Below, one piece after another: positions 3,755 to 22,516 of a stretch of DNA of 64,000 nucleotides. This DNA is from a virus (taxonomy: Duplodnaviria > Caudoviricetes). The stretch spans positions 32,001 to 96,000 of the IMG/VR virus record IMGVR_UViG_3300021387_001666. One strand, written 5' to 3'. Below the pieces are notes generated by a model, which was not told where the DNA came from, did not search any database, and saw nothing but the letters and a program-made list of their open reading frames with translations. Both the position numbers and the translations under genes were made by a program. Numbering within the stretch: the stretch's first letter is position 1; each line of letters begins with the position of its first letter.

Positions 3755-3762
3755 TATCTTTG
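3755..3762 (+). promoter_or_regulatory. Bacteroidota -7 promoter element TATCTTTG
   Basis: Matches TAnnTTTG, between the terminator and ATG 3782. Confidence 0.75.
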
Positions 3763-3781
3763 CAACAAAAATATACTTAGG

Positions 3782-15619: not shown

Positions 15620-17911
15620 TTATTTTGGTCCTTTACCATTCTTATACCAATATTTTCCTGATGTTTCCCACCAGTCCTTAACAGCAGGGATTTGCCATGC
15701 TGTTTTACCAGCAGAATTAACATCTTTAGTATGCTTGGAATTTCCAGTATTATAATCTCCTTGGGCATAATACCTGAAAGCATCTAGTAAAGGAGGGGTA
15801 TTTCTATCTACATTGGCATTATTATATTGAAAGTTTCTCACTAAGTTTTCAGCAGGAATATAACCAAAAGCTGTAAAATAATTAGTATTACCTAATGCTC
15901 TATTATATATAGCATTTCCATCCTTATAGTTAAAATAAGGCATAGCCCCATTATGTGTTTCCTGAGTAGATAGTCCAAGCATCTCATTCATATTAATTTG
16001 TCTGGGAGCACCATATCTACTTCTTTTCTTGCGAGGATGTTCAGACAGTTGAGGGTTTCTATTATAAATACCTGCATATTTAGCCAGACTATCCAAGACA
16101 TTGGTTGAAGTAGTACTACCATTAATAAGAATAGATTTCTCAGGGATAAAAGGAATATCAAAGACAGGATTAGATGCTCCATTCTGAGCAGCATTATCTA
16201 CTATCTTTAGTTTCATCTGCCTTTCCAACCTCTCACTATCATTCTTTGTCTTTGAGGTATTTGGTCTTTGCCTCTTTGGAACCAGTTTCAATTCTTGTTT
16301 GTTTGGATAAACAGCTTTAATTACTTCAGCAGGCTTTCCTCTGTAAGTATATTGTTTTGATTTTTTCTCTGGTTCAGAAGAGAATAAACCTTTTAGCCAT
16401 TCTAAGAAACCACCATCTTCATATGTATTAGTCATAGCCATATCTACCATTGGCTCTTGAAGGGATCCTCCAAGTCCATGCTTCCAGTGTCTGCTATTCA
16501 GTGCAAAGGTAGCCATCTTCTTTTGAGCAGGAGTACCATGCTCCTTAAACCATGTGGCAGAATGACCTGTCCTCTCCTTCAGAGCGGTAAACTTTCCTCT
16601 ATTCTCTGGCTTGATATGGATTTTACCTCCTGAATCATACAGACTCATCATTTGGGCCACCTCTTTATAGTGCTCTCCAAAATACTTTGCATCATCCTCA
16701 TTATCAAATTTTATGGATTGCATATAGCTTCTCTGATCATTCTCAGGAGACCACACATTGTCTATAAATGCAAGGCCTCTGCCAGTATCTTGTATTTGAG
16801 GAGTTACCAGATTTTCATAAGACCCCACATATACATTGCCTCTTTTAGGTTCTCCAATACCTTTGTCATATTCATATTCCCCAGGCCATGTATAGCTTCT
16901 GGTGTCATAGTTAGTCATCCTCCTGGCAGTAGGATTGCCAAAATTGGCACTAATAGCCAGCTTTGACTTCATCATTCCAGTCATTGCAGGATTGGTATCT
17001 CCACCCTCAGCAAACTCATTATATTTGTCTTTGATTTCTTGAAGATTGGTAATACCGTTACTAACAGCTACCTTTATCATAGCAGCTTTCTCATTCATGG
17101 AAAGATTCTCCCATGCGTTTTTAGGTTGATACAAATAACCTCCTTCAGACATCTGTTTGATTGGTATATTGACTATAGGTTTACTAATTTTGAGTGCATC
17201 AGGTTGTTCAGTATGAGATGGGGCACTAACATTAAAGTTAGGTTTATAATCATCAGAATTTAGATTATATTTAGAGAAATATTGTTGCTTCCATTCCATT
17301 CGTTTCTGTGGAGAACCGATATATCTGAATGCAGTAGGAGTCCCAAGAGCATCTGATAAACTACTTAGTCTCTCATTTTTCTTCATTGTTGGGATAGTAT
17401 CTCCTTTATAAACTATATATGGAACACTATTTCCATTACTGTAGCTAAAAGTAGGCTCCCCTTTAAATGTTCTACCTGTCATAAGTACACTATGATGAGG
17501 TCCAAGTCTTTCGTCAGAAAATTGAACTAAATCTCCTTCTGCAACACTGTCTATTGGGATTACCTCAAATCCAAATTTATCAGGATTTCTTCTAAATGTT
17601 TTATTTCCTGAGACTTTAGCTCCCCTATCATTAAATTGACTAGTAGCAGTATATATACATGTTTCAGGATCAGCTGTTCCAAAGTATTTAATCCTTTCCT
17701 CATCTGACATTCCTATAATGGCAGCAGCAATGCTCCAAGGTGCTCTGCTTGGTATTATGGGGACATTAGGTGCAGTTTGTTGTAAAATATGAGAAGCTGC
17801 TGTACTTCTACTTTTAATAGCTTGCTCCTCTATATAACTTTCTAAAGATGGTATTGTGTAATTACCTTTAGGGGTTACTATTATCTCTCTTGTCAGGTAT
17901 TTCTTTGGCAT
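15620..17911 (-). CDS. Modular putative virion cargo protein with NlpC/P60-CHAP-like and lysozyme-like domains
   Basis: N-terminal ETCIYTAT..GDLVQF..PHHSVL gives a Cys/His dyad. The centre has an IHIKPENRGKFT module. The C-terminus has LSTQET..YNTGN. Modules are separated by xxGG motifs. Confidence 0.5.
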   Translation of the reverse strand: MPKKYLTREIIVTPKGNYTIPSLESYIEEQAIKSRSTAASHILQQTAPNVPIIPSRAPWSIAAAIIGMSDEERIKYFGTADPETCIYTATSQFNDRGAKVSGNKTFRRNPDKFGFEVIPIDSVAEGDLVQFSDERLGPHHSVLMTGRTFKGEPTFSYSNGNSVPYIVYKGDTIPTMKKNERLSSLSDALGTPTAFRYIGSPQKRMEWKQQYFSKYNLNSDDYKPNFNVSAPSHTEQPDALKISKPIVNIPIKQMSEGGYLYQPKNAWENLSMNEKAAMIKVAVSNGITNLQEIKDKYNEFAEGGDTNPAMTGMMKSKLAISANFGNPTARRMTNYDTRSYTWPGEYEYDKGIGEPKRGNVYVGSYENLVTPQIQDTGRGLAFIDNVWSPENDQRSYMQSIKFDNEDDAKYFGEHYKEVAQMMSLYDSGGKIHIKPENRGKFTALKERTGHSATWFKEHGTPAQKKMATFALNSRHWKHGLGGSLQEPMVDMAMTNTYEDGGFLEWLKGLFSSEPEKKSKQYTYRGKPAEVIKAVYPNKQELKLVPKRQRPNTSKTKNDSERLERQMKLKIVDNAAQNGASNPVFDIPFIPEKSILINGSTTSTNVLDSLAKYAGIYNRNPQLSEHPRKKRSRYGAPRQINMNEMLGLSTQETHNGAMPYFNYKDGNAIYNRALGNTNYFTAFGYIPAENLVRNFQYNNANVDRNTPPLLDAFRYYAQGDYNTGNSKHTKDVNSAGKTAWQIPAVKDWWETSGKYWYKNGKGPK

Positions 17912-17913
17912 AT

Positions 17914-18168
17914 TTATCTAATTAACGGTTCTATTATGCTACAGTAAACACAGGGAGTATAGATAAGCCTGTCTCTTTCAGACGCTATACAGCTATCTTT
18001 CTGTTCTGAAGTCCAGCCATTGTTTTCTGCTTTTCTTTCAGCTAAATCAACAGCAATAAGTAATTGGGTTTTATTTTTGGCCTTTTGCTGTTCTGTACAA
18101 GAATGGTTTTCTACAACTGCTAATCCAAGCAGTAGTACTCCTATTATTATATATAGTATTTTTTTCAT
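17914..18168 (-). CDS. Small exported or membrane-anchored protein (84 aa)
   Basis: MKKILYIIIGVLLLGLAVV signal/anchor; lies directly after a canonical promoter. Confidence 0.6.
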   Translation of the reverse strand: MKKILYIIIGVLLLGLAVVENHSCTEQQKAKNKTQLLIAVDLAERKAENNGWTSEQKDSCIASERDRLIYTPCVYCSIIEPLIR

Positions 18169-18186
18169 ACTTAATTATATTTGCTG

Positions 18187-18217
18187 CAAATTTAAGAATT
18201 ATTTCTATATTGACAAA
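18187..18217 (-). promoter_or_regulatory. Canonical Bacteroidota promoter (-33 TTTG, 19-nt spacer, -7 TAAATTTG)
   Basis: CAAATTTA at 18187-18194 and CAAA at 18214-18217 on the + strand. Confidence 0.75.
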
Positions 18218-18272
18218 GGATATAAGAAGTTTTCTTATCTAACAGACTTTTTATTATCAAAAAGACACAATT

Positions 18273-18738
18273 AGTCCCTTATGGACTTTCTTGGCTCATC
18301 ATCTTGAAACTTCCACTGCGCGGTCAGTTCAGCTAACTCGTAGCATAATTTAACTGTAATCTCCCTATTACCCCATTTACCCTCTACCTCTTTTCCATCA
18401 TAGCTTGGCGGGGAACAGCTTTATATTCAAGAAATTTGTGGCCTATCGGAGTTTGAGCTATCCTGTTATCTCGGAGATTATGTTTCCTCTTCTGAGGTAT
18501 CTCCTACAATCCGACTTCTGACCCTTACCATCTGCTTCCTGTTTCTCAATGGCGTAGGGTGTACATGAGACTATGACTCTCAAGGGCCTAAATATCTGGT
18601 AATAAAAACCAGAGAAAGAAAAATTGCAACCCTATAGTGACTCACAGGTTGCAATTATCTCCATCTCTGGTATATATTTGAGGAGCTCCCTCCGTCAAAT
18701 CCAACTATGTCCTTGCAATCAGAGTCACTTGATTACTG
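18273..18738 (-). ncRNA. Candidate structured non-coding RNA or origin-associated transcript
   Basis: No credible ORF, own canonical promoter, several hairpins with G-U pairs on the - strand, and two loops with 8-nt perfect complementarity. Confidence 0.55.
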
Positions 18739-18741
18739 ATG

Positions 18742-18772
18742 CAAAGATACACATATTTTTATAATAACCAAA
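18742..18772 (-). promoter_or_regulatory. Canonical Bacteroidota promoter firing into the non-coding region
   Basis: -7 TATCTTTG (CAAAGATA 18742-18749), 19-nt spacer, -33 TTTG (CAAA 18769-18772). Confidence 0.75.
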
Positions 18773-18895
18773 ATTTTAGCAGTTAATATTTATTAAATAG
18801 GTACGGGTACATTATTATATGTATTTCAGTTAACTCTTCTATACAGAATAGATAAGGATTGTCCTAAGCTATAGGGTAAGAAGCTGTATTATATT

Positions 18896-18903
18896 TATCT
18901 TTG
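18896..18903 (+). promoter_or_regulatory. -7 promoter element for the lysis genes
   Basis: TATCTTTG upstream of ATG 18949. Confidence 0.7.
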
Positions 18904-18948
18904 CATCAAAGAAAATATATATGTTTAGAATTAATAAAAAGATATAAT

Positions 18949-19281
18949 ATGGCATCAGAAGTTGTAATTACACTGGTAGGATTATTCTGTACGACAGTAT
19001 CCAGTATAGTCACATTTATCCTCACAAGGAGGAAGTATAATACTGAGGTAGATTCTCAGCAGATAAAGAACATGGATGAATCTTTCGAGATTTACAAGAA
19101 GGTGATGAATGAGTCCTTGAATGCTCAGAATGAAAAGATTGCACTTCTTCAGAGAGAGAATGACAATCTTAGACAGCAGGTTAATAGCTTACAAGAACAG
19201 GTTATTAGTCTTGTAGGTATGCTTGGTGGTTCTTCTAAAGCAGTAAAAGGTCCAGAACCTATTGGTATGAAAGACATGTAA
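18949..19281 (+). CDS. Holin-like protein: N-terminal TM helix plus coiled coil
   Basis: MASEVVITLVGLFCTTVSSIVTFILTRRK followed by heptads; immediately upstream of the amidase. Confidence 0.5.
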   Translation: MASEVVITLVGLFCTTVSSIVTFILTRRKYNTEVDSQQIKNMDESFEIYKKVMNESLNAQNEKIALLQRENDNLRQQVNSLQEQVISLVGMLGGSSKAVKGPEPIGMKDM

Positions 19282-19282
19282 T

Positions 19283-19930
19283 ATGAATAAACAGCAAGCT
19301 ATTATCATATTAGGTACAGCCCATAGGATGAGAGAGCCTGGAAAGGAATCTCCTGACAAGAGACTGAAGGAATGTATATATTCCAGAGAGCTGTGTAAAG
19401 AGATAGCTGATAAGCTAAGAGCATACGGCTGTAAGGTAGAGATAGACTATGAACCTCTTGACTTACCAAGAAGTATGCAGTCTCCCAACTATAAGCAGGA
19501 GCTGAATAATGAGCTGGCTATGAGGGTTAACTATGTCAATGAAATATGCAGACAGAAAGGTGCTAAGAATGTATTGTATGTTTCTATTCATGTAGATGCT
19601 TCAGGCAGTGATGGTCAGTGGCATAATCCTAATGGTTGGAGTGTAAGAGTCAGTCTTAATGCCTCAGAGAACAGCAAAAAGCTGGCAGGATGTCTGTTTG
19701 ACACAGCTAAGCAGAAAGGTCTTAAAGTAAGACAGCCTTCTATGTCTCAGAAATACTGGCCTCAGAATCTATTTGTATTGAGGAACACAGAATGTCCCGC
19801 AGTGTTGACAGAAAATTTATTTCAGGATAACAAAGCTGATGTAGATTACCTGCTGTCAGATGTTGGCAGGCATGTAATAGCAAGACTTCATGTAGAGGGA
19901 ATATTGAAATATGTTAGTGATGCGAATTAA
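19283..19930 (+). CDS. N-acetylmuramoyl-L-alanine amidase endolysin (Amidase_3)
   Basis: LGTAH..E, SIHVDA and PAVLTENLF zinc/catalytic motifs. Confidence 0.85.
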   Translation: MNKQQAIIILGTAHRMREPGKESPDKRLKECIYSRELCKEIADKLRAYGCKVEIDYEPLDLPRSMQSPNYKQELNNELAMRVNYVNEICRQKGAKNVLYVSIHVDASGSDGQWHNPNGWSVRVSLNASENSKKLAGCLFDTAKQKGLKVRQPSMSQKYWPQNLFVLRNTECPAVLTENLFQDNKADVDYLLSDVGRHVIARLHVEGILKYVSDAN

Positions 19931-20075: not shown

Positions 20076-20083
20076 TATCTTTG
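20076..20083 (+). promoter_or_regulatory. -7 promoter element for the portal gene
   Basis: TATCTTTG overlaps the TTG start called by the ORF track, so the real start is probably ATG 20111. Confidence 0.7.
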
Positions 20084-20110
20084 CCTACAAAAAGAGTAAA
20101 GATTGTTTTT

Positions 20111-22516
20111 ATGGCATATAGTGCAATAGGAGGTTTTCCTCCTCAACAGTTAAGCTTCAGCAGGAAGAATAAGGCATGGAGGGTAAAATGTGTGGACTTT
20201 GCAGATGACCACAGCATTATGAGGAACCATGCTGCAGGAAAGTCATGGTATAACATGATGATAAACTATGACCTCATCAATGGAAAGATACACATGTCTG
20301 ACATTAAGGCTGTAGTAAATCCCTTTGGACTTGATGCATCTTTTATTCCAGATAATATTCAGCATTATTCAGTTATTAACCCAAAGCTGAATGTGCTTAG
20401 GGGTGAGGAAAGTGAAAGACTGTTTGATCCAAGACTGGTAGTTACTAATCCTACAGCCATCAGTGAGATGGAAGAGGAAAAGAATAAACAGGTGAATGCA
20501 AGGCTCCAGCAGCTTATTATGGATACCTCCCAGAGTGAAGAGGAGTTTCAGCAGCAACTTCAAAAGCTGGATGACTACTTTAACTATGAGTATCAGGACA
20601 AAAGGGAAATCAGAGGTAATCTGTTTCTCAGTCACTACTCAAGAGAGCTGGAATTTTCCCAGAAGTTCAATAAAGGCTTTGTGGATGCCTACACTGTAGG
20701 AGAGGAGATTTATCAGTGTGATATTGTAGGAGGAGAACCAACTCTTGAAAAGATAAGACCTATGGAGCTTGGTATTATCAGAAGTGGTGACTCTGACAGG
20801 ATAGAAGATGCAGATATGCTTATCCTTCAGAGATATAAGAGTCCAGGCTGGGTAATAGATGCTTATTGGGATCAGTTATCCAAGAAAGACATCGAGAGGA
20901 TAGAGGAGGGTAGTAATGGTGAATACAGCGGTTGGAAGGATTCTATGGATAACATAGATGCAAGACCAGGCAATCCATTAGTACCTGTACCTTGTGACTG
21001 GCAGGCAGGAGACAGCCATATCAATGCCAGTGAGCTCTTTAATGATGATAACTATACCAATATGACTCCCTATGACATTAATGGTAATGTCAGAGTATTG
21101 ACAGTCTATTGGAAGTCAAGAAGAAAAATCAAGAAAGTAAAAAGCTATAATCCTGAGACAGGTGAAGAAGAGTTCAACTTCTATCCAGAGACCTATCATT
21201 GTGATCCCATGAAGGGAGAGGAAGAGCAGATATTCTGGATTAATGAGGCATGGGAGGGCACTAAGATAGCAGAAGACATCTATGTCAACATGAGGCCCAG
21301 ACCTATACAATATAATAGGTTAAGCAATCCTTCTGTATGCCATTTTGGAATTGTAGGAAGTATCTATTCTATTAATGGTGATGAGCCCTATTCACTGGTA
21401 GATGCAGTAAAGCCTGATGCATACTTCTATGATATTGTCAGGGATAAGCTGATTAAGCTTATTTCCAAGAATATGGGCAAGTTGGCAAGAATGGACTTTG
21501 CCAAGATACCCAAAGGATGGGATATAGATAAATGGCTATATTTTGCCACTGTCAATGGTATAGCTGTTGAGGATAGCTTCAAGGAAGGAACAATAGGAGC
21601 CTCCACAGGTAAACTGGCAGCAGGACTTAACAATGCTTCCAATGGCGTTATAGATGTATCTTTAGGAAATGAGATACAATTCCACCTCAACCTACTTGAG
21701 TGGATAGCTAATAATATAGGTGAACTGGCTGGTATCTCAAGACAGAGAGAAGGACAGATAAGTAACAGAGAAACTGTAGGTGGTGTTGAAAGGGCAACCC
21801 TTCAGTCAAGCCATATTACCAAATGGCTATTCTTTATTCATGACAGTGTAAAGAAGAGAGCTATCGAATGTTTCCTTGAGACAGCTAAGATAGCCTATAA
21901 AGGCAGAAAAATTAAGTTTAACTACCTACAGCCTGATGGTAGCAGGAAACTTGTTGAGATAGATGGTGATGAGTTTGCAGAATGTGACTATGGTCTTGTA
22001 GTAGATACTGGTAATGATGTGCAGGAGCTTATGCAGAACCTTGGACAGCTTGCACAGGCAGGTCTTCAGAATGACAAGATGAACTTCTCTACCCTGATTA
22101 AGATTTATCTCACCAAGAGTCCTACAGAGAAGCAGAGACTTATTGAAAGATATGAGCAGAAAGTGGAGGAACAACAGAGGCAAGCTCAGCAGCAACAGCA
22201 GCAGCAGTTTGAGCAGCAGTTACAGCAGCAGGCTCAGCTTGAACAGGCTAAGATGGATAGAGAATATCAGATGCATCAGGAGAAGCTCCAGAATAACATC
22301 CTTACTTCTGAAATTGCATCTCAGGCAGAGGCTCAAAGATTTGCCATGATGAATCATGATAATGATGAAGCCAATGACATTGAGAGAGAGAAGATAGCTG
22401 AGAATGCAAGACAATTTGATGCTAAATTGAAACTGGATACTAAGAAGCAGGCTGATGATGCAAGACTCAAGGAGAAACAAATTCAAGTGACCAAGCAGAA
22501 AGCCATTAATAAATAG
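20111..22516 (+). CDS. Portal protein
   Basis: About 800 aa with PPQQLS..K, NYDLING, INPKLNVLRGEE, WINEAWEGTKI and GISRQREGQISNRETVGGVERA, typical of crAss-like portals. Q-rich C-terminal coil. Confidence 0.85.
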   Translation: MAYSAIGGFPPQQLSFSRKNKAWRVKCVDFADDHSIMRNHAAGKSWYNMMINYDLINGKIHMSDIKAVVNPFGLDASFIPDNIQHYSVINPKLNVLRGEESERLFDPRLVVTNPTAISEMEEEKNKQVNARLQQLIMDTSQSEEEFQQQLQKLDDYFNYEYQDKREIRGNLFLSHYSRELEFSQKFNKGFVDAYTVGEEIYQCDIVGGEPTLEKIRPMELGIIRSGDSDRIEDADMLILQRYKSPGWVIDAYWDQLSKKDIERIEEGSNGEYSGWKDSMDNIDARPGNPLVPVPCDWQAGDSHINASELFNDDNYTNMTPYDINGNVRVLTVYWKSRRKIKKVKSYNPETGEEEFNFYPETYHCDPMKGEEEQIFWINEAWEGTKIAEDIYVNMRPRPIQYNRLSNPSVCHFGIVGSIYSINGDEPYSLVDAVKPDAYFYDIVRDKLIKLISKNMGKLARMDFAKIPKGWDIDKWLYFATVNGIAVEDSFKEGTIGASTGKLAAGLNNASNGVIDVSLGNEIQFHLNLLEWIANNIGELAGISRQREGQISNRETVGGVERATLQSSHITKWLFFIHDSVKKRAIECFLETAKIAYKGRKIKFNYLQPDGSRKLVEIDGDEFAECDYGLVVDTGNDVQELMQNLGQLAQAGLQNDKMNFSTLIKIYLTKSPTEKQRLIERYEQKVEEQQRQAQQQQQQQFEQQLQQQAQLEQAKMDREYQMHQEKLQNNILTSEIASQAEAQRFAMMNHDNDEANDIEREKIAENARQFDAKLKLDTKKQADDARLKEKQIQVTKQKAINK

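What the first reader, a model, noticed from the sequence alone, without database searches (positions are those of the whole stretch)
18595..18772. Promoter-proximal kissing-loop leader with a terminator and an alternative stem
Seen on the - strand just after a canonical promoter. Hairpin 1 is GUAAUCA-[AGUGACUC]-UGAUUGC (18715-18736). Hairpin 2 is AUUUGA..UCAAAU (18676-18700). Hairpin 3 is a ~24-bp imperfect stem (18608-18671) followed by a U-run. Its loop contains GAGUCACU (18636-18643), the exact complement of loop 1 (18722-18729). G-U pairs favour this strand. A downstream ACCAG (18596-18600) can compete for the base of hairpin 3. Inference: a small RNA of ~135 nt, or an attenuator switch controlling read-through into the rest of the non-coding region.
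Basis: partly seen in the sequence, partly recalled or inferred. Interest (0 to 1): 0.75.

Follow-up and report, generated by a model that had tools for sequence, protein, structure and literature searches.

The report
Covarying kissing-loop leader of phage RNA
The hairpins are real: they form the first ~150 bases of a ~480-base non-coding RNA gene carried on a small optional cassette in rumen crAss-like phages, and the pairing between two of their loops is kept by matching changes in six phage lineages, but what the RNA does is unknown.

Summary
The stretch lies on the minus strand just after a Bacteroidota-type promoter (TTTG, 19 nt, TAnnTTTG). It is not a sigma-70 promoter.

In this one sequence the 8-nt loop-loop match is weak evidence: about 10% of shuffles give one. 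Relatives make the case. I found six different loop pairs (window, L091, L114, L010/L120, L115, L117). All are perfectly complementary over 8-12 nt, and there are six double compensatory substitutions. Hairpins 2 and 3 also covary. The alternative stem (H4), which competes for the base of hairpin 3, exists in all six lineages.

The leader is the 5' domain of a ~480-nt stand-alone RNA gene. A ~335-nt body follows it: 22 of 62 pairs are compensatory, and there is no Rfam match. The whole 561-bp cassette (promoter to terminator) is missing from near-identical phages. In other lineages it sits beside the portal gene, in either orientation.

Metatranscriptome contigs from three studies cover the body. 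The leader's own transcript ends are unmapped.

My best reading is a loop-nucleated folding gate or attenuator for the body RNA. Rival readings are a static tertiary contact, or pairing between copies as in phi29 pRNA and ROOL/GOLLD.

The same scan had already noted this stretch in overlapping windows.

The parts
18812..18818 (.). Right-edge copy of the 7-bp direct repeat TTATTAT that bounds the cassette.
   Evidence: Filled versus empty sites were compared. L095, L096 and L097 join window ~18257 directly to ~18812-18823.
18742..18772 (-). Bacteroidota-type promoter: -33 TTTG, a 19-nt spacer, then -7 TATCTTTG. The transcription start is inferred near 18737.
   Evidence: Both boxes and an 18-20-nt spacing (19 nt in five of the eight) are kept in L091, L093, L114, L010, L120, L115 and L117.
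18715..18736 (-). Hairpin 1: a 7-bp stem including one U.G pair, with an 8-nt loop at 18729-18722 (loop 1).
   Evidence: The stem is invariant in the close relatives. L114 and the L010 class have a hairpin at the same place built from other stem sequences.
18677..18699 (-). Hairpin 2: hypervariable in sequence but conserved as a hairpin.
   Evidence: Window versus L091: 49% of positions differ in the linker plus H2, against 3% in the body. Two pairs are changed on both sides. L091 and L114 carry GNRA-type loops here.
18608..18671 (-). Hairpin 3: a 23-bp imperfect, terminator-like stem. Its 14-nt loop is 18646-18633, and 18643-18636 is complementary to loop 1.
   Evidence: One A-U to U-A transversion pair and one G.U to A-U change relative to L091. 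One U-A to C-G change relative to L114 (read by eye).
18595..18613 (-). Alternative hairpin H4. The 3' strand of the H3 base (18613-18608) pairs with ACCAGA (18600-18595). The U-rich run 18607-18601 forms its loop, so the run is either the terminator's U tract or this loop.
   Evidence: A hairpin of this kind (4-6 bp, U-rich loop) is predicted in all six lineages. In each it reuses the 3' strand of the H3 base.
18253..18593 (-). Conserved structured RNA body (~335 nt).
   Evidence: Alignment A4 and RNAalifold: 62 pairs, 22 with compensatory changes among 5 sequences. Model R1 scores 380 bits here and finds a single copy in the genome. There is no Rfam family. RNA-library contigs cover 18290-18467 and 18381-18589.
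18259..18287 (-). Terminator of the unit: hairpin 18287-18273, then a U run at 18263-18259.
   Evidence: The hairpin and U run are conserved in all body homologues.
18251..18257 (.). Left-edge copy of the direct repeat TTATTAT.
18187..18217 (-). A separate Bacteroidota-type promoter for the 84-aa and 763-aa genes. It shows that those genes do not depend on the RNA unit's promoter.
   Evidence: It is retained in the relatives that lack the cassette.

Best explanation
The finding is the 5' domain (about 150 nt) of a stand-alone, accessory non-coding RNA gene of about 480 nt. The gene lies on the minus strand, from a start near 18737 to an end near 18259, on a 561-bp cassette in rumen crAss-like phages.

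It is transcribed from a host-type Bacteroidota promoter. The nascent RNA forms hairpin 1 at its very 5' end, then a variable hairpin 2, then hairpin 3. The loop of hairpin 1 base-pairs with the loop of hairpin 3. This RNA-level pairing is shown by covariation, and I give it about 0.9.

The mechanism that follows is inferred, and I give it about 0.4-0.45. The loop-loop contact nucleates a choice between two folds:
- Fold A: H1, plus a closed H3 followed by a U-rich tract. This is terminator-like and would yield a ~135-nt RNA.
- Fold B: the two segments form a longer helix. The 3' strand of the H3 base is released into hairpin H4, whose loop is the U tract, and transcription runs on into the conserved 335-nt body.

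On this reading the leader gates how much full-length body RNA is made or how it folds.

The body's own function is unknown. It is dispensable for the phage.
For: **Loop-loop pairing**
- Six different loop pairs are all perfectly complementary: window 8 nt, L091 8 nt, L114 12 nt, L010/L120 8 nt, L115 8 nt, L117 12 nt.
- Window versus L091: 2 of 8 pairs are changed on both sides and 100% stay paired.
- L010 class: 4 of 8 pairs are changed on both sides, and 0 of 500 shuffles reach this.
- No sequence has a mismatch inside its own 8-12-nt complementary core. In the fixed 8-column register of A7 one cell (L117, col 24/141) is unpaired, because L117's helix is shifted by one position.

**Other helices**
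- H2 and H3 also covary.

**Strand**
- The promoter is conserved in all 8 leaders and the terminator in all body homologues.
- There are 3-6 G.U pairs per leader.
- Five of six leaders fold better on this strand.

**Two folds**
- The minimum-energy fold is local hairpins in the window and L091.
- In L114, L010, L115 and L117 it is the long-range helix plus H4.
- H4 is present in all six lineages.
- A U-rich tract follows H3 in both classes.

**Separate modules**
- L093 has the window's leader (~99% identical) joined to a body only ~80% identical.
- L109 has the body without the leader.

**Autonomy of the unit**
- The cassette is absent from L095, L096 and L097, although they carry the identical neighbouring 110-aa gene.
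- It sits between a 152-aa gene and the portal gene in L010, L115, L117 and L120, and in the opposite orientation in L114.
Against: - No transcript 5' or 3' ends are available, so termination at H3 is untested. The RNA-library contigs that could be laid cover the body only.
- H4 uses sequence downstream of the U tract, so it cannot act as a classical antiterminator at the moment of decision.
- In the window and L091, H3 is so stable (23 bp) that fold B is far from the energy minimum. There the two loops can pair only as a kissing complex.
- The regulated product would be another non-coding RNA. No signal that flips the switch is known.
- H1 and H3 stems do not vary within the L010 class. Their reality in that class rests on thermodynamics and on analogy with the other class.
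Confidence: 0.45

Rival explanations
1. Static intramolecular tertiary contact. The loop-loop helix compacts and stabilises the 5' domain of the mature 480-nt RNA and protects its 5' end. It has no regulatory role. The U run is merely the loop of H4.
For: - Covariation proves pairing but not switching.
- H1 sits at the very 5' end.
- The U-rich run is the H4 loop in all lineages.
- Long-range loop-loop helices are common in large RNAs (general knowledge; also 10.1101/2024.12.08.627333).
Against: - L109 keeps the body without this domain.
- The leader recombines independently of the body.
- Two mutually exclusive helices, the H3 base and H4, are both conserved.
- A 12-bp helix cannot co-exist with closed 12-14-nt loops (stereochemical inference).
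Confidence: 0.2
Loop 1 of one RNA pairs with loop 3 of another copy, giving dimers or rings, as in phi29 pRNA or the quaternary kissing loops of ROOL and GOLLD.
For: - The two loops are non-palindromic and mutually complementary, and they are displayed on hairpins of very different length (7 bp versus 23 bp). This makes an intramolecular reach awkward.
- The loops and H2 are the most variable parts between otherwise ~97% identical cassettes.
- At least two further loop-3 alleles co-occur in one rumen sample.
- The cassette lies next to the portal gene in three lineages.
- Covarying kissing loops first read as tertiary contacts turned out to be intermolecular in ROOL and GOLLD (10.1101/2024.12.08.627333).
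- pRNAs self-associate by kissing (PMC4201828, abstract).
Against: - Sequence data cannot tell pairing within one molecule from pairing between molecules.
- The cassette is absent from near-identical phages, so it has no essential packaging role.
- The divergent block in L091 may be a recombination patch rather than diversifying selection.
Confidence: 0.15
3. A separate ~135-nt small RNA, terminated at H3, acts in trans on nascent leaders or on another target. This would resemble phage P4 CI RNA, whose complementary sites lie in the same leader and cause premature termination.
For: - The layout matches: promoter, untranslated leader, complementary segments within one transcript, and a terminator-like H3.
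- The P4 mechanism is summarised in PMC4825925.
Against: - No protein-coding genes lie downstream to repress. In the L010 class the unit is convergent with its neighbour.
- No other site in the 108-kb genome matches either loop with its flanks at 3 or fewer mismatches.
Confidence: 0.1
4. A DNA-level element, such as paired operators, an origin, a recombination site or an invertible segment, or simply chance.
For: - Both strands fold about equally well by z-score.
- The single-sequence match has p of about 0.1.
Against: - Six covarying versions exist, and the 561-bp cassette encodes no cognate protein.
- G.U pairs and G.U to A-U changes make sense only as RNA on the promoter strand.
- There is no inversion between variants.
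- The cassette is dispensable, so it cannot be an essential origin.
Confidence: 0.04

Closest known systems
Transcription attenuators and leader switches built from mutually exclusive hairpins, including antisense-nucleated ones (pT181, pIP501) and the phage P4 immunity leader (CI RNA with seqA and seqC)
   Same: The leader is promoter-proximal and untranslated. Complementary segments lie within one transcript. A terminator-like hairpin is followed by a U-rich tract. An alternative pairing is conserved. The complementary segments differ between relatives while staying matched.
   Different: What lies downstream is a non-coding RNA, not replication or lytic genes. No processed antisense RNA is known here. 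The competing stem H4 lies downstream of the U tract. Termination is untested.
phi29-family packaging RNA (pRNA)
   Same: It is a phage-encoded RNA. Two non-palindromic loops of the same molecule are complementary to each other. The loop sequences differ between related phages but stay matched. The gene sits near the packaging genes, here the portal.
   Different: There is no sequence or structure match: Rfam, which should include the pRNA family (my recollection, not checked), gave no hit. The complementarity here is 8-12 nt, against about 4 nt in pRNA by my recollection (no paper read here gave the figure). The element is optional rather than essential, and it belongs to a 480-nt RNA. The host is Bacteroidota, not Bacillus.
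ROOL and GOLLD ornate phage or prophage RNAs
   Same: These are large, heavily paired phage-borne RNAs of unknown function with their own promoters. [quoted passage not shown] Both have covarying kissing loops.
   Different: There is no Rfam match at the gathering threshold over the whole window, nor at E <= 10 over 18000-19000. This RNA is smaller. Whether it forms multimers is unknown.
ColE1 RNA I/RNA II and the CopA/CopT kissing complexes
   Same: Recognition is nucleated by loop-loop pairing of 7-8 nt. In the L010 class, H3 is close to the reverse complement of H1, so a kissing complex could extend into a duplex.
   Different: Both partners here lie on the same sense transcript. They are not a sense and antisense pair.

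Membership tests
Any Rfam 15 family (including what I recall as the pRNA, ROOL, GOLLD and riboswitch models; their presence in the library was not checked) | A covariance-model score at or above the gathering threshold. | tested here: not met
   No hit over the whole window. With E up to 10 on 18000-19000, only chance-level snoRNA and miRNA matches appeared.
Bacteroidota housekeeping promoter | -33 TTTG and -7 TAnnTTTG, about 19-21 nt apart. | tested here: met
   Site at 18772-18742. The same layout is kept in all 8 homologous leaders. The consensus itself is recalled from the literature, not re-derived here.
Intrinsic (factor-independent) terminator | A stable hairpin immediately followed by a U-rich tract. 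| tested here: met
   H3 (23 bp) is followed by a U-rich run at 18607-18601. A U-rich tract also follows H3 in L114 and in the L010 class. The consensus scan did not list it because its loop exceeds the 8-nt limit.
Intrinsic (factor-independent) terminator | RNA 3' ends at the U tract in vivo or in vitro. | not testable with these tools
   Only assembled contigs were available.
Attenuator or leader switch | Two mutually exclusive, conserved pairings that involve the terminator stem. | tested here: met
   The H3 base and H4 compete in all six lineages. Local hairpins and the long-range helix are alternative folds.
Attenuator or leader switch | A regulated downstream gene and a known input signal. 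| tested here: inconclusive
   The downstream element is the conserved RNA body. No input signal could be identified.
phi29-type pRNA | Mutually complementary loops within one RNA that covary among phages. | tested here: met
phi29-type pRNA | Essential for packaging and present in every member of the phage group. | tested here: not met
   The cassette is absent from L095-L097, which share the identical 110-aa neighbouring gene and ~97-98% identical flanking DNA, and from L123-L126 and L129.
Phage P4 CI RNA immunity leader | Complementary sites in the leader control premature termination upstream of replication genes. | tested here: not met
   Complementary sites are present. However, no protein genes lie downstream in the unit, and in the L010 class it is convergent with its neighbour.

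The most novel reading that the evidence does not exclude
The two covarying loops act as an identity tag. That would make it a pRNA-like or ROOL/GOLLD-like RNA assembly in crAss-like phages, encoded beside the portal gene on a mobile cassette.
Probability: 0.15. Interest if true: 0.85.

Novelty: new variant of a known kind. Interest (0 to 1): 0.62.

Why it matters
crAss-like phages are among the most abundant gut and rumen viruses, yet I found no description of a non-coding RNA of theirs in Rfam 15 or in the papers I could search. Three points stand out here.

- **A new, rare RNA family.** Its structure is unusually well supported. It is carried on a self-contained 561-bp cassette that comes and goes between near-identical phages and sits next to the portal gene.
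- **A clean natural example of loop-loop covariation.** There are six versions of the leader's loop pair. This makes a specific mechanism directly testable with loop-swap mutants: either a kissing-nucleated folding gate or self-assembly between copies.
- **A third unrelated RNA in one genome.** The same phage carries two other unrelated ~0.5-kb structured RNAs (earlier notes of this scan). Together these point to an RNA-based layer of crAss-like phage biology.

Tried and rejected
**Homologue searches that gave nothing or little**
- blastn (words of 11 bases, 'distant' mode) of the intergenic region against 50,697 phage records gave no match.
- BLAST against 80 portal-linked IMG/VR loci matched only L010, and only in the body.
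- The 763-aa neighbouring protein found no relatives in viral contigs.
- Four DNA-pattern scans of viral contigs for new loop variants or new body copies returned nothing new, and two earlier body-motif scans confirmed only L086, the contig of L010.
- A spurious 46-aa ORF spanning both loops was used as bait for variant contigs. It found nothing.
- Model R1 found no further copy in 96 loci. It found only one extra genome among about 300 Prevotella-related genomes.

**Hypotheses rejected**
- Hidden coding was rejected. All six frames carry mixed stop codons, and homologues differ by 1-nt indels.
- Paralogy with the genome's other two structured RNAs was rejected. R1 finds a single copy, and their 5' parts show no similar leader.
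- A trans target in the phage genome was not found.
- The body's first hairpin contains a 6-nt match to loop 3. It does not change when loop 1 changes in L091, so it is not the partner.

**Inconclusive read data**
- RNA-library contigs do not cover the leader. That is no evidence either way.
- One RNA contig stops at 18589, the leader-body boundary. That is at most a weak hint of processing.

**Alignment limits**
- MAFFT could not align the two leader classes together, so covariation was counted per class.

Full report
**Setting**

The window is bases 32001-96000 of a 108-kb virus record. It has crAss-like hallmarks:
- a portal protein of PHROG 6547 at 20081-22516;
- an amidase endolysin at 19283-19930;
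- open frames of 2383 and 3815 aa.

The runs that hold this sequence come from bovine, sheep and other animal gut samples.

The finding lies in a divergent gap of about 780 bp. To the left, on the minus strand, are an 84-aa gene (ATG at 18168) and a 763-aa gene. To the right, on the plus strand, is a 110-aa gene (ATG at 18949) followed by the endolysin.

**The observation**

- The fold is far better than shuffles: -52.7 kcal/mol, z = -4.96.
- The plus strand also scores well (z = -5.79).
- The promoter is not sigma-70-like. It is of the Bacteroidota type: TTTG, 19 nt, then TATCTTTG, at 18772-18742.
- Only seven such full sites occur in the genome against 2.2 expected. A second one (18217-18187) directly serves the 84-aa gene. 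Another precedes a different structured RNA elsewhere in the genome.
- The 8-nt loop-loop match is not significant on its own: 193 of 2000 shuffles of the leader contain a complement at least as long.

**Relatives**

The phage collection and most portal-linked IMG/VR loci lack the region. Homologues came from four sources:
- a motif scan of metagenome contigs gave L091 and L092;
- contigs encoding the neighbouring 110-aa protein gave L093-L102;
- contigs encoding a 152-aa protein that neighbours the element in another lineage gave L115-L120;
- genome searches with a covariance model gave L109 and L114, both on contigs binned with Prevotella-like genomes.

**Covariation of the loop pair**

L091 is 93% identical to the window over the cassette. 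In loop 1 two adjacent bases are swapped, and loop 3 carries exactly the complementary swap. All 8 pairs are therefore kept.

L114 has the same promoter and H1 stem as the window but quite different loops. Those loops are complementary over 12 nt.

A second leader class (L010/L120, L115, L117) is not alignable in sequence with the first. It has the same layout, and its three loop versions differ by compensatory changes at four of eight positions. None of 500 column shuffles reaches this, and sliding the partner columns abolishes it.

In total there are six loop pairs, six double substitutions and two wholesale replacements. No sequence has a mismatch within its own complementary core; the one unpaired cell counted in A7 (L117) reflects a one-position shift of its helix. 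I take the RNA-level pairing of these two segments as established (about 0.9).

A DNA-level reading is not credible, for three reasons:
- the cassette encodes no protein;
- G.U pairs (3-6 per leader) and G.U to A-U changes fit only the promoter strand;
- five of six leaders fold better on that strand.

**Other helices and the alternative stem**

Hairpin 2 is the most variable part. Between the window and L091, 49% of positions differ there, against 3% in the body. It still stays a hairpin, with two pairs changed on both sides.

Hairpin 3 shows one transversion pair against L091 and one compensatory pair against L114 (read).

H4 reuses the 3' strand of the H3 base and has the U-rich run as its loop. 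Such a hairpin is predicted in all six lineages, built from different sequences.

The minimum-energy fold differs between lineages:
- in the window and L091 it is the three local hairpins;
- in L114, L010, L115 and L117 it is a long-range helix of the two complementary segments plus H4, with H3 not formed.

In the L010 class the top of H3 is nearly the reverse complement of H1. A kissing complex there could therefore extend into a duplex.

**What the leader belongs to**

Directly after H4 begins a ~335-nt body, conserved at 72-80% identity in distant relatives.
- It has single-base indels and no open frame.
- It has 62 predicted pairs, of which 22 show compensatory changes among five sequences.
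- It ends in a conserved hairpin plus U run at 18287-18259.
- Model R1 finds one copy in this genome, and Rfam has no match.
- Contigs from three RNA-library studies lie on the body, at 18290-18467 and 18381-18589. Such contigs show presence in an RNA library. They show neither the strand nor the ends, and DNA carry-over cannot be excluded.

The unit is a cassette.
- L095, L096 and L097 encode the identical 110-aa protein and have ~97-98% identical flanks. They join window ~18257 directly to ~18812-18823 and so lack the promoter, leader, body and terminator.
- A 7-bp direct repeat sits at both edges of the filled site.
- In L010, L115, L117 and L120 the cassette lies between the 152-aa gene and the portal gene, convergent with the former.
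- In L114 it lies in the same place but in the other orientation.
- More distant homologues of both neighbouring genes have no cassette.
- The leader and the body also behave as modules. L093 joins the window's leader to a body only ~80% identical. L109 has a body with no recognisable leader.

**Mechanism**

Shown:
- a promoter-proximal RNA domain with H1, H2 and H3;
- a base-paired loop 1 and loop 3;
- a conserved competition between the H3 base and H4.

Inferred: the loop contact forms as soon as loop 3 is transcribed. It then biases the nascent RNA toward one of two outcomes. One is a closed H3 before the U tract, giving termination and a ~135-nt product. The other is the long-range helix with H4, giving read-through into the body.

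I rank this gate reading first (about 0.45). It uses every conserved feature, including the two mutually exclusive helices. Its weak points are these:
- termination is untested;
- H4 lies downstream of the decision point;
- in the window itself H3 is too stable to be displaced.

The rivals are:
- a static tertiary contact (0.2);
- pairing between copies (0.15);
- a separate trans-acting small RNA of the P4 CI kind (0.1; mechanism as summarised in PMC4825925);
- a DNA-level element or chance (0.04).

The between-copies rival deserves attention. Covarying kissing loops of ROOL and GOLLD, first read as tertiary contacts, proved to be intermolecular bridges (10.1101/2024.12.08.627333). phi29-type pRNAs self-associate through kissing loops (PMC4201828). 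One rumen sample holds at least two more loop-3 alleles, but their loop-1 partners could not be seen.

**Comparison and novelty**

The element works like a leader switch or attenuator and like kissing-loop recognition systems. It is not a member of any Rfam family. It fails the 'essential' criterion of pRNA and the 'downstream genes' criterion of the P4 immunity leader.

I found no description of it in the literature I could search.

I rate it a new variant of a known kind. It is a new phage RNA family whose 5' domain carries an unusually well-supported, rapidly changing loop-loop pair.

The same scan had already flagged this stretch in overlapping windows, and had flagged two other structured RNAs in this genome. 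Those notes are leads, not evidence.

Noticed in passing
window 17128-18164: Relatives L091, L093 and L095-L097 join window 17127 directly to 18165, and L098 shows a similar ~1-kb gap (17116 to 18185). They therefore lack the 84-aa gene and the first ~260 codons of the 763-aa gene. In L091 a 91-aa-plus frame starts right behind the second promoter and matches an internal part of the 763-aa protein. The window's arrangement appears to be the unusual one.
   Followed up: partly
window 18636-18643 (run X1): A single rumen sample holds at least two more loop-3 alleles, seen as paired 1-nt insertion and deletion calls. The matching loop-1 letters were not among the rows shown.
   Followed up: no
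L093:1805-2382: This is a mosaic cassette. The leader is ~99% identical to the window, but the body is only ~80% identical. The break lies at the leader-body boundary (~18592).
   Followed up: partly
L002:100-300: The closest IMG/VR relative has an extra small frame inserted between the plus-strand promoter and the 110-aa gene. Its contig ends exactly at the -33 box of the RNA promoter.
   Followed up: no
window 18897-18908 (+) and 18737-18748 (-): The two divergent promoters share the same 12-nt core around the -7 box. A one-mismatch copy lies at 3756-3767, before the 1001-aa gene.
   Followed up: partly
L114:2026-2646: Downstream of the cassette, only a 206-aa frame matches the N-terminal part of the portal family (phrog_6547). 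The portal gene may be interrupted or read in another code on this contig.
   Followed up: no
L109:1217-1533 (contig JAFQGS010000075.1, goat caecum MAG labelled Prevotella): This is a body homologue with no recognisable kissing-loop leader and no consensus promoter. It sits in a 1.2-kb gap of a 42.6-kb contig. The binning hints at Prevotella-type hosts.
   Followed up: partly
window 18381-18589 (run X7): One RNA-library contig ends exactly at the leader-body boundary with no loose end. This is a weak hint that the body may exist as a processed species.
   Followed up: no
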